A stretch of 24,919 nt of DNA from a virus, in IMG/VR virus record IMGVR_UViG_3300021579_000001, positions 66,404-91,322 of that record. One strand, written 5' to 3'. Below, one piece after another: positions 20,817-22,304 of this stretch. Numbering within the stretch: the first letter of the stretch is position 1; every line of letters begins with the position of its first letter. The notes beneath the pieces are model-generated. The model was not told the DNA's origin and made no database searches. It was given only the letters and a program-made list of their open reading frames with translations. Position numbers and translations under genes: made by a program.

Positions 20817-20899
20817 TGGTGGAGCTGAAGGGAATCGAACCCTTGTGCATCATCCTCCGACAAGCGGCTTTAAGACAATGACGAAACCATAGCAGCCCC
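20817..20899 (-). ncRNA. Mini tmRNA-like RNA (tRNA-like domain only, 83 nt)
   Basis: Minus strand GGGGCTG-CTATGGTTTCGT-CATTGTCTT...AGGATGATG-CAC-AAGGG-TTCGATT-CCCTT-CAGCTCC-ACCA. It has G3-U70, a stemless D-loop and encoded CCA, but no tag ORF. Confidence 0.8.
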
Positions 20900-21024
20900 T
20901 AAGAGTAAGTCATCGGCATCTCCAGCTAGTAGGAGGGTCAACGACTTACTCAAGTTTAAAGGTCACCAATAACAGATTGGCACGTAGTGGGGTTATGGTG
21001 CGCACCTTATCCCACCGACCTTTA

Positions 21025-21113
21025 GTGAGCTGTCGAGATTTGAACTCGAACCTGTGTGTACATCCTCTGGGAGCTCCCTGAGGCACCGTGCTACCTGATT
21101 ACACTACAGCTCT
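21025..21113 (-). ncRNA. tRNA-like RNA with anticodon arm replaced by a long hairpin
   Basis: Acceptor GAGCTG/CAGCTC; D arm GTGT-AATCAGGTA-GCAC; T arm TCGAG-TTCAAAT-CTCGA; no 7-nt anticodon loop. Confidence 0.7.
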
Positions 21114-21312
21114 GGTCGTTTCGCATACACTGGAGACCAAACCTTTTTACCTCTTATGGCTTAAACCCTTTCGGGGTGCCCCTCAGTTACGAGTTGCAGA
21201 CATAAGTCGGGGTGTTACATATGTTGGCCGTATTTGCAATGCGGGAGACCAAACCCTGCTAGGAGAACCCGAAGGTCTCCCGTTACCCGTCCTGCAAAGG
21301 CAGGAAAGGCGA

Positions 21313-21404
21313 AGCGTTTCTGATGTGGGAGTCTAACCCACGGCTATTCTTTTCAAGCCCTTTCAGATGGACAGTCCCGACGATACTGCTTCGTCAGAAA
21401 CGCT
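21313..21404 (-). ncRNA. Second tRNA-like element with 11-bp closing stem
   Basis: AGCGTTTCTGA/TCAGAAACGCT; T-arm-like GTGGG-TTAGACT-CCCAC; D-arm-like CAGT-ATCGTCGGG-ACTG. Confidence 0.5.
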
Positions 21405-21672
21405 CATAATTATATACGACCCTTTCGGGCTTCTATAATAGGTGCAATGCGTTTCGACGTGTCCTTGCAAGTAGCCGCCGTGATTCTGAAGCAGCAACCG
21501 CCTAGCGCATTACTTGACAGCGAGAGGCGAGAAAAGGGTATTTCAGCTTTCCAAGTGCGCTTCATCTATCCAGTTGTTATCCTATCACCTGCCGCAGCAA
21601 AGGGTGGTAAGACCAGTAGTTCCGTAGGGCTGCGTATCTTGTTCATACCGTTACGAAAGGAACTGCTGTTTG

Positions 21673-21747
21673 TTTCGGAGGCAAGATTCGAACTTGCGAC
21701 CTCCAGCTTATGAGGCTGGCGAGCTAACCGAGCTGCTCTACTCCGAT
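21673..21747 (-). tRNA. tRNA-Met(CAT), initiator-like
   Basis: ATCGGAG/CTCCGAA (1:72 mismatch); D arm GAGC/GCTC; anticodon arm CCAGC-CTCATAA-GCTGG; T arm GCAAG-TTCGAAT-CTTGC. Confidence 0.9.
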
Positions 21748-21934
21748 ATGTTGTGGTGCGTAGTTGACAAGACTACCACCACCGACTCTATGCGCTACTA
21801 CCTCCGAGTAGGAGCACCATTGCCGTATCCTTACGAACTAAGGGGTTTGGTATACCCGCTGTGCTTCTATGGTCACAGACCCAACCATCTAGTAATTCGG
21901 CACTAGCACCTAACACGAGAAGTCACTCTCATCG

Positions 21935-22005
21935 AACGGATGACCAGAATCGAACTGGCATCAAATCCTTGGAAGGGACTTGTTTTTCCATTAAACTACA
22001 TCCGC
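21935..22005 (-). tRNA. tRNA-Gly(TCC)
   Basis: GCGGATG/CATCCGT; anticodon arm AGTCC-CTTCCAA-GGATT; U73; no CCA. Confidence 0.93.
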
Positions 22006-22135
22006 ATACGTAGGCTATAAGTATTGGTATACCCAACCTACGAGTCCCATGGCATTCGCCACCTTTCAACAGACCGAGACTACAATCTGGCTAGCTCCGA
22101 CTAAGCAGTTACCACACTGCCGTCTTTGCGGGTCG

Positions 22136-22207
22136 CTGACCATCCTGGATTCGAACCAGGAACCTTAGAGTTAACAGCTCTCTGCTCTGCCGTTGAGCTA
22201 ATGGTCA
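22136..22207 (-). tRNA. tRNA-Asn(GTT)
   Basis: TGACCAT/ATGGTCA; anticodon loop CTGTTAA; T arm CCTGG-TTCGAAT-CCAGG; G73; no CCA. Confidence 0.93.
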
Positions 22208-22220
22208 TTATTTAGTTTTG

Positions 22221-22304
22221 AAAGTGCCCCTAGAGGAAAGGGGGATAACTCTAGGGGCACTATAACCAACACACACCCATAGAAAGAAAGGAGGAACTAT
22301 GAGT
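22221..22304 (-). ncRNA. Candidate two-hairpin small RNA / leader with anti-Shine-Dalgarno loops
   Basis: ACTCATAG-TTCCTCCTTTCTTT-CTATGGGT, then GTGCCCCTAGAG-TTATCCCCCTTTC-CTCTAGGGGCAC-TTT. It starts 6 nt after a -10 box. Confidence 0.65.

What the first reader, a model, noticed from the sequence alone, without database searches (positions are those of the whole stretch)
20817..22304. 1.5-kb almost gap-free non-coding RNA operon apparently aimed at translation
Seen: between one promoter (22340-22311) and one terminator (20783-20814) there is no credible protein gene. In transcript order it holds the anti-SD RNA, tRNA-Asn, a structured spacer, tRNA-Gly, a structured spacer, tRNA-Met and ~560 nt of helices including a tRNA mimic. 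It finishes with an anticodon-less tRNA, a 3-way junction, a hairpin and the mini-tmRNA. G-U pairs, GAAA tetraloops and a C(UUCG)G loop mostly favour the minus strand. Established: large ornate phage RNAs such as GOLLD and ROOL sit among tRNA genes. Inference: a multi-RNA toolkit released by tRNA processing, combining real tRNAs with decoys for translation or anti-phage factors, located directly behind hsp20.
Basis: partly seen in the sequence, partly recalled or inferred. Interest (0 to 1): 0.82.

Follow-up and report, generated by a model that had tools for sequence, protein, structure and literature searches.

The report
Mix-and-match phage small-RNA gene cluster
Behind its heat-shock gene, a freshwater phage of actinobacteria carries a row of small RNA genes (three normal tRNAs, a tag-less piece of the ribosome-rescue RNA, a tRNA without an anticodon, and hairpins that copy the ribosome's mRNA-docking sequence); related phages swap these units in and out, and they probably tune the host's protein synthesis, though none has been tested.

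Summary
The feature is real, but it is a cassette array of separate RNAs, not one GOLLD/ROOL-like RNA. The genome is a complete 91-kb freshwater actinophage. A promoter embedded in the hsp20 3' end is conserved (25 of 29 related loci). The slot behind it holds 125 to over 1,000 nt in relatives (1,550 here), with modules in varying order. 73% of the 1,488 nt is tRNA or has a relative elsewhere. Best supported: an 83-nt tmRNA head without message (invariant G3·U70, 16 of 23 pairs covary), of the same family as the known mycobacteriophage DS6A RNA and unannotated in several cultured Streptomyces phages; a double hairpin with anti-Shine-Dalgarno loops, built like cuckoo sRNAs but lacking their motif; and an anticodon-less tRNA with one DNA homologue. 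Other spacers match no Rfam family and, taken together, fold no better than coding DNA. Metatranscriptome contigs cover 21150-21659. Likely function: SmpB titration, ribosome-binding-site occlusion and tRNA supply; all inferred. This scan found mini-tmRNAs and anti-SD hairpins before on other DNA; their joint, exchangeable array is what is added here.

The parts
22327..22872 (-). hsp20 gene; its last codons carry the -35 box of the RNA promoter
   Evidence: PHROG 432 and Pfam HSP20
22311..22340 (-). sigma-A type promoter, TTGACA-18-TAAACT with TG
   Evidence: 25 of 29 relatives with TTGACA in this register have TAnnnT 16-18 nt on, against 11 of 132 other hsp20 loci
22221..22304 (-). double-hairpin RNA with pyrimidine (anti-Shine-Dalgarno-like) loops at 22296-22283 and 22248-22236
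   Evidence: z -5.2; 13 relatives with variable stems and U/C loops, CCUUUC in most
22135..22207 (-). tRNA-Asn(GUU), no encoded CCA
   Evidence: the commonest tRNA in this slot of relatives
22006..22134 (-). spacer RNA 1, branched helix plus hairpin, no known family
   Evidence: z -2.3; a relative's RNA contig keeps 22011-22211 with 12 changes and 2 gaps
21934..22005 (-). tRNA-Gly(UCC)
21748..21933 (-). spacer RNA 2, 186 nt, no known family
   Evidence: 92% identical in L170, where it lies between tRNA-Asn and tRNA-Leu; z -0.75; no compensatory change among 55 predicted pairs
21672..21747 (-). tRNA-Met(CAU) with 1:72 mismatch and A11-U24 (initiator-like) but without the three anticodon-stem G-C pairs
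   Evidence: sequence
21614..21669 (-). module A1, helix with variable interior directly 3' of a tRNA
   Evidence: closing helix kept in RNA contigs of relatives (tables 7 and 8) and in like form in L192-L194
21579..21613 (-). module A2, bulged hairpin
   Evidence: 84% in L194; all 4 stem changes keep or restore pairing, none on both sides; kept in runs X5 and X10
21442..21577 (-). module B, nested helices with a possible pseudoknot; insertion absent from relatives
   Evidence: pairings located; z +0.3 by nested folding; skipped in X5 and X10 contigs
21408..21441 (-). internal-loop hairpin with GAAA cap; includes a TATAAT that could be an internal -10 box
   Evidence: z -2.3; retained at the joints in X5 and X10 (table 5c)
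21313..21403 (-). module C1, tRNA mimic (10-bp closing stem, D-like and T-like loops)
   Evidence: z -3.7; weak tRNA-Sec model hit, 17 bits; no relative found
21258..21309 (-). module C2, two hairpins, one with C(UUCG)G
   Evidence: z -3.1 and -1.4; no relative found
21114..21257 (-). module D: two copies of a GGUUUGGUCUCC motif around a small unit with a GNRA hairpin
   Evidence: 95% or more conserved in RNA contigs of relatives; middle part 80% in L194; the motif alone recurs at the 5' end of the slot in L001; folding z about 0
21025..21113 (-). tRNA-like RNA whose anticodon loop is replaced by an extended bulged stem; 6-bp acceptor stem
   Evidence: L194 homologue keeps all 25 pairs, 2 by change on both sides; 1 difference in an RNA contig of depth 122
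20957..21024 (-). three-way junction
   Evidence: z -2.2; no relative found
20903..20951 (-). long hairpin with conserved internal loop
   Evidence: z -7.1; homologue with the same fold in L186
20817..20899 (-). mini-tmRNA: tRNA-like domain, helix 2a and a conserved 3-bp cap; no message domain; encoded CCA
20783..20810 (.). 12-13 bp hairpin, probably a bidirectional terminator
   Evidence: near-identical hairpin closes the slot in L167

Best explanation
The region is an exchangeable array of small stable-RNA genes transcribed from a host sigma-A promoter built into the end of hsp20 (shown by conservation). The precursor is cut by host tRNA-processing enzymes at the tRNA and tRNA-like units, and CCA is added afterwards, since most units end in discriminator plus C only (inferred). 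The products act separately on host translation. (1) The three tRNAs supplement or replace host tRNAs. (2) The mini-tmRNA is alanylated through G3·U70 and binds host SmpB (the phage has none), but has no reading frame to resume on, so it most likely damps trans-translation tagging, as reported for the DS6A form. (3) The 5' double hairpin presents copies of the 16S rRNA 3' tail in open loops and occludes strong Shine-Dalgarno sites, those of the phage's own probably early gene arm and/or of host mRNAs. (4) The anticodon-less tRNA and the remaining modules are ligands or decoys for tRNA-binding proteins, or are simply carried and matured by the tRNA scaffold; their targets are unknown. Architecture: about 85% sure. 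Functional reading as a whole: about 50%.
For: Promoter conservation, p about 1e-16 but relatives are not independent. Slot length 125 to over 1,000 nt in relatives with modules in different orders: mini-tmRNA last here, second in L167/L186/L004; spacer 2 between other tRNAs in L170; modules B and C absent from X5. Mini-tmRNA: 14 of 23 pairs covary in 14 freshwater sequences, 16 of 23 with cultured phages, G3·U70 invariant; a model trained without them finds DS6A (68.5 bits) and BRock (56 bits). DS6A form reported to inhibit tmRNA (PMC4131195, PMC11915505). No smpB in the complete genome. Anti-SD loops stay pyrimidine-rich while stems turn over; CCUCCUUUCU is a documented 16S 3' tail of Gram-positive bacteria (PMC6288834; for actinobacteria from my own knowledge). 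Hairpin 1 pairs better with start regions of the + strand gene arm (median -11.9 against -8.7 kcal/mol). Metatranscriptome contigs without differences cover 21150-21659.
Against: No experiment, no stranded reads, no mapped ends. RNA data are contigs only, from runs chosen because they hold this stretch. The early-gene match may only reflect stronger SD sites in that arm, and starts were picked by SD score. Loops do not keep a fixed motif (some second loops are not anti-SD). A full-length, tag-coding tmRNA sits in the same slot in L027, which fits help for ribosome rescue better than inhibition. About 400 nt have no relative, and the spacers on average fold no better than coding DNA.
Confidence: 0.55

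Rival explanations
1. The 21025-21669 block is one large ornate RNA (GOLLD/ROOL-like in behaviour, a new family) with a core of about 350 nt, optional inserted domains B and C, and a tRNA-like 3' end as its processing handle.
For: Order A1-A2-D-tRNA-like is kept in L194 and in RNA contigs of runs X5 and X10; one 510-nt RNA contig spans A1 to D; size and tRNA neighbourhood resemble ROOL/GOLLD (PMC5737381).
Against: No GOLLD or ROOL match at E<=10 (the ROOL search had no positive control); whole-block z -0.9; all supported helices are local; A1-like and D-motif units occur alone elsewhere (L192/L193, L001); a contig across modules does not show one transcript.
Confidence: 0.2
2. The mimics are anti-defence decoys: they soak up host anticodon nucleases, tRNA-binding sensors or 16S-tail-cutting toxins, and the array turns over quickly because hosts differ in defence systems.
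For: Fast gain and loss of modules; intact tRNA elbow without an anticodon; several further tRNA-like families in the same slot of relatives.
Against: An RNA without anticodon is a poor decoy for an anticodon nuclease; the UCCUU site of MazF-mt3-type toxins (own knowledge) is missing from several loop homologues; no host or defence system is known.
Confidence: 0.2
3. The mini-tmRNA promotes rather than blocks rescue: Ala-charged RNA plus SmpB takes over the nascent chain and frees the ribosome without adding a degradation tag, or adds alanines repeatedly.
For: G3·U70 and all helices are under selection, which pure SmpB titration might not need; message-less tmRNAs persist with SmpB in mitochondria (PMC11915505); full tmRNA in the same slot in L027.
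Against: The DS6A form was reported to inhibit endogenous tmRNA in E. coli; no stop codon or frame is conserved, so release needs an unknown factor.
Confidence: 0.25
4. Apart from the tRNAs, mini-tmRNA and 5' hairpins, the spacers are processing or stability signals and drifting leftovers shuffled by recombination at conserved tRNA ends.
For: Mean spacer z equals coding background; spacer 2 shows no compensatory change; modules B, C and the three-way junction have no relative.
Against: Spacer 2 is 92% identical in a phage whose Hsp20 is 52% identical; the anticodon-less tRNA, A2 and the 20903-20951 hairpin keep their folds in distant relatives; relatives' RNA contigs keep module D at 95% or more.
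Confidence: 0.2

Closest known systems
Message-less (TLD-only) tmRNA of Mycobacterium phage DS6A (PMC4131195, PMC11915505)
   Same: 83 nt, G3·U70 acceptor, stemless D loop, helix 2a, T arm, and the same AAARCCGC...CGG cap; DS6A scores 68.5 bits with my model.
   Different: Described as a single phage case; here it is common in freshwater actinophages and unannotated in cultured Streptomyces phages, and lies in a multi-RNA array. DS6A and all 10 freshwater homologues scanned fall below the Rfam tmRNA cut-off.
Cuckoo sRNA family of Alphaproteobacteria (PMC4615179); C-rich-loop sRNAs such as RsaE (PMC2790875)
   Same: Adjacent hairpins with variable stems and anti-SD-like loops; SD occlusion shown for RsaE.
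   Different: Loop motif is CCUUUC(U), not CCUCCUCCC or UCCC; phage-borne, actinobacterial host; no Rfam match.
Phage T4 tRNA region with RNAC and RNAD (PMC3014915)
   Same: Stable RNAs of unknown role made from a phage tRNA cluster.
   Different: No sequence relation tested or seen; here about a dozen exchangeable modules, including a tmRNA head and anti-SD hairpins.
GOLLD (RF02032) and ROOL (RF03087)
   Same: Several hundred non-coding nucleotides beside phage tRNA genes, lake habitat.
   Different: No model match; no evidence for one long-range fold; parts are lost singly.
Bacterial Y RNAs (YrlA/YrlB) with Ro60
   Same: tRNA-like elbow without anticodon.
   Different: Normal rather than permuted cloverleaf order (own knowledge), no Ro60 gene in this phage, no YrlB match.

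Membership tests
TLD-only tmRNA (DS6A type) | 7-bp acceptor stem with G3·U70, A73 and (encoded or added) CCA | tested here: met
   G3·U70 in all sequences; CCA encoded in the window
TLD-only tmRNA (DS6A type) | stemless D loop, helix 2a, T arm; tmRNA model match | tested here: met
   64.6 bits against RF00023; covariation in helix 2a and T stem
TLD-only tmRNA (DS6A type) | no tag reading frame or pseudoknots | tested here: met
   only about 17 nt between the strands of helix 2a; no conserved frame or stop
TLD-only tmRNA (DS6A type) | alanylation, SmpB binding, inhibition of trans-translation | not testable with these tools
   literature report for the DS6A form only
Cuckoo sRNA family | 2-4 adjacent hairpins with variable stems | tested here: met
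Cuckoo sRNA family | loop motif CCUCCUCCC | tested here: not met
   absent from all loops listed; definition
Cuckoo sRNA family | alphaproteobacterial origin | tested here: not met
   two WhiB genes and a terminase 52% identical to Streptomyces phage BRock point to an actinobacterial host
GOLLD | match to RF02032 | tested here: not met
   none at E<=10
ROOL | match to RF03087; six junctions and three pseudoknots in about 580 nt | tested here: not met
   none at E<=10 (one search had no positive control); block z -0.9
Bacterial Y RNA | Rfam match and Ro60 neighbour | tested here: not met
Small self-cleaving ribozymes (twister-sister, HDV-like/theta, pistol, hatchet, hammerhead) | family model match | tested here: not met
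   no hit at E<=10 over 20900-22320; twister-sister alone. Minimal theta ribozymes may escape Rfam; cleavage not testable
Canonical tRNA (for 21025-21113) | 5-bp anticodon stem with 7-nt loop, 7-bp acceptor | tested here: not met
   extended bulged stem with 4-nt loop and 6-bp acceptor in both copies
Single polycistronic RNA operon | one transcript from 22304 to 20783 | tested here: inconclusive
   one promoter-like site; RNA contigs cover parts only

The most novel reading that the evidence does not exclude
Actinophages keep a dedicated, recombining 'RNA toolbox' locus in which many undescribed RNA families, several built on a tRNA scaffold with the anticodon arm swapped for a conserved functional stem, are matured by host tRNA enzymes and act as RNA-only effectors against translation quality control and defence. 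The mini-tmRNA would then be a widespread RNA inhibitor (or tag-free substitute) of trans-translation, testable at once in cultured Streptomyces phages.
Probability: 0.3. Interest if true: 0.85.

Novelty: new variant of a known kind. Interest (0 to 1): 0.62.

Why it matters
Why phages carry tmRNA and tRNA-like RNAs of unknown role (T4 RNAC/RNAD, DS6A) is an old open question. This locus shows that such RNAs come as an exchangeable array in a common group of freshwater actinophages, yields several conserved RNA motifs missing from Rfam, and places the DS6A-type mini-tmRNA in cultured Streptomyces phages (BRock, GiJojo, LuckySocke, Tomas, Riptide, pSt2308), where it can be deleted and assayed in laboratory strains. 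An RNA that blocks trans-translation or occludes strong ribosome-binding sites would be a protein-free route of host takeover.

Tried and rejected
Exact-pattern scans for the window's own mini-tmRNA, module D, anticodon-less tRNA and spacer 2 found nothing in viral or genome collections (the pattern also missed a known variant base); the family pattern found no mini-tmRNA in bacterial genomes, so no host came from it. BLAST and model searches of 37-50 related viral records found no further copy of the large block or the anticodon-less tRNA; most records are fragments. Cultured phages share only tRNAs with the region by BLAST; BRock's tRNA spacers hold none of the other modules. A + strand micro-ORF opposite the anti-SD loop (11 codons) was rejected: its length and stop differ in L167 and L170 (read). 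A hidden tag frame in the mini-tmRNA was rejected: the freshwater forms could read Ala-x5-stop, but the window, DS6A and BRock cannot. Spacer 1 resembles twister-sister and HDV ends by eye, but the models give no hit, and one variant base breaks a predicted pair. A tRNA intron in 21025-21113 was rejected: no 5-bp anticodon stem can be rebuilt. Missing RNA cover over the tRNAs and mini-tmRNA in runs X2/X3 is no evidence either way. No single phage gene stands out as target of the anti-SD hairpins (longest exact match 11 nt). Mao et al. 2009 could not be read and is cited at second hand.

Full report
Context. The window is the last 24.9 kb of a complete 91,322-bp phage genome with terminal repeats. 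It comes from fresh water, encodes two WhiB proteins, no SmpB and no Ro60, and its terminase is 52% identical to that of Streptomyces phage BRock. I infer an actinobacterial host. The region lies between hsp20 and a convergent + strand gene block ending in a zinc-ribbon gene at 20603-20770.

Observation. ARAGORN and Rfam find the three tRNAs, an anticodon-less tRNA (37 bits) and an 83-nt tmRNA match (64.6 bits), all on the minus strand. Nothing else in Rfam reaches a family cut-off, at E<=10 over 20900-22320 or in targeted GOLLD, ROOL, YrlB and twister-sister searches. The three + strand ORFs inside lack ribosome-binding sites and overlap RNA genes. Folding is uneven: the 5' double hairpin (z -5.2), the 20901-20953 hairpin (-7.1), the tRNA mimic C1 (-3.7) and some small hairpins beat shuffles, while the 558-nt block (-0.9) and spacer 2 (-0.75) do not, and spacer windows average the same as coding windows. 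With many modules tested, z values near -2 mean little alone.

The slot is conserved, its content is not. Hsp20 relatives lie on many 85-95 kb contigs. Of 29 distinct loci with TTGACA in the last hsp20 codons, 25 have a TAnnnT box 16-18 nt downstream, against 11 of 132 others. The non-coding stretch behind it measures 125 to over 1,000 nt in relatives and about 1,550 nt here. Modules recur in different company: L170 has the anti-SD RNA, tRNA-Asn and spacer 2 (92%) followed by tRNA-Leu; L167 has anti-SD RNA, mini-tmRNA, tRNA-Asn and the same terminator; L186 adds the 20903-20951 hairpin; L194 has anti-SD RNA, tRNA-Asn, tRNA-Gly, tRNA-Ser, A2, part of D and the anticodon-less tRNA in the window's order; L027 has a full tmRNA. 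RNA contigs of relatives join A2 to D while skipping B (X10) or B and C (X5). In all, 221 nt are tRNA, 577 have a DNA homologue, 288 more are matched by relatives' RNA contigs, and 402 have no relative. This is the main reason for reading the region as an array of exchangeable genes.

Mini-tmRNA. Fourteen distinct freshwater sequences give 98% pairing, 14 of 23 pairs with changes on both sides, and invariant G3·U70. A model built on them recovers the DS6A message-less tmRNA and unannotated copies in BRock, GiJojo, LuckySocke, pSt2308, Tomas and Riptide; Alone3 shows the same element by eye. The wider alignment, which is fitted to the model, has 16 of 23 pairs covarying. A short purine loop and 3-bp cap are conserved in sequence from DS6A to lake phages, so the cap is probably functional; I infer it is the remnant of the helix 2a/2b junction. 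The DS6A form is reported to inhibit tmRNA, perhaps by titrating SmpB (PMC4131195, PMC11915505). The full tmRNA in L027 and the strict alanine identity keep a tag-free rescue role open.

Anti-SD RNA. In 13 relatives one or two hairpins start right behind the promoter; stems of 7-15 bp differ in sequence while most loops of 8-19 nt are 83-100% pyrimidine and contain CCUUUC. The first loop here contains CCUCCUUUCU, a documented 16S 3' tail (PMC6288834). Hairpin 1 pairs more strongly with start regions of the + strand small-gene arm than with the rest, but this partly restates SD strength. The design matches cuckoo sRNAs and RsaE-type C-rich loops; the cuckoo motif is absent. Binding of a pyrimidine-preferring protein remains possible.

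Anticodon-less tRNA. The L194 copy keeps all 25 pairs with two double changes, the D/T loop contacts and the inner stem that replaces the anticodon. Two sequences give no statistics (116 of 500 shuffles), but a decaying pseudogene should not keep the replacement stem. A relative's RNA contig of depth 122 differs at one base and stops within three letters of its 3' end, a weak hint of a processed end.

Expression. Two 2018 freshwater metatranscriptomes hold contigs identical to 21150-21659 and 21149-21585, and others over hsp20; most flanking DNA has no cover. These are contigs, without strand or ends, from runs selected for this stretch and perhaps from the source campaign. They support transcription of the middle block, no more.

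Verdict. Shown: a conserved promoter slot, a modular array, and three non-tRNA RNA classes under structural selection. Inferred: processing by host enzymes, SmpB titration, SD occlusion, decoy roles. The kind is known (phage tRNA clusters with extra stable RNAs; DS6A RNA), and earlier notes of this scan report mini-tmRNAs and anti-SD hairpins in other phages (unchecked notes, not support). The variant, an exchangeable array with several motifs absent from Rfam, is new as far as my searches reach.

Noticed in passing
KX925554 97140-97220 (L210:1501-1581, minus) and L214-L219: Unannotated mini-tmRNA just 3' of tRNA-Val(UAC) in cultured Streptomyces phages BRock, GiJojo (overlaid by a hypothetical CDS), LuckySocke, Alone3, pSt2308, Tomas, Riptide; Naboo by BLAST only.
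   Followed up: yes
L213:6752-8903 (BRock): gp191 is a Ro60/TROVE protein, preceded by a 580-nt non-coding stretch with repeated units and tRNA-like loops; BRock's tRNA cluster has many 70-250 nt spacers that look structured.
   Followed up: partly
L010:~1215-1285, L179, L182, L169, L001:6657-6725: Another tRNA-like family in the same slot: GGACUG acceptor, T loop UGCAAAU or UUCGACU, no normal anticodon arm.
   Followed up: no
L171 and L175, 60-150 nt upstream of the mini-tmRNA: tRNA-like RNA whose anticodon arm carries a CUCCUU (anti-SD-like) loop, in about 47-kb phages.
   Followed up: no
L192:5054-5105, L193, L194: 52-nt element between tRNA-Gly and tRNA-Ser that can form an H-type pseudoknot with a GNRA hairpin; ribozyme-like, not scanned against Rfam.
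   Followed up: no
L006, L045, L071, L088, L130, L143, L171, L178, L179: Recurrent CCUGAGCA...AAACUGCUC hairpin after hsp20 or an anti-SD hairpin in several phage groups; no Rfam hit in the loci scanned (L006, L088).
   Followed up: no
L027:4544-4836 and L007:1579-1881: Full-length phage tmRNAs; L027's occupies the post-hsp20 slot and encodes a tag ending in YALAA.
   Followed up: partly
L004, L086, L090 second hairpin: Second loop is complementary to an AUG start region rather than to an SD, so the two loops could grip SD and start codon together.
   Followed up: no
window 17722-19000 and genome 8-12 kb: Small + strand genes share a junction motif CTTATCAAAGGAG beyond the SD itself.
   Followed up: no
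window 21414-21409: TATAAT inside the GAAA hairpin module could be an internal -10 box; L183 has a second TTGACA/TAAACT promoter before tRNA-Asn.
   Followed up: no
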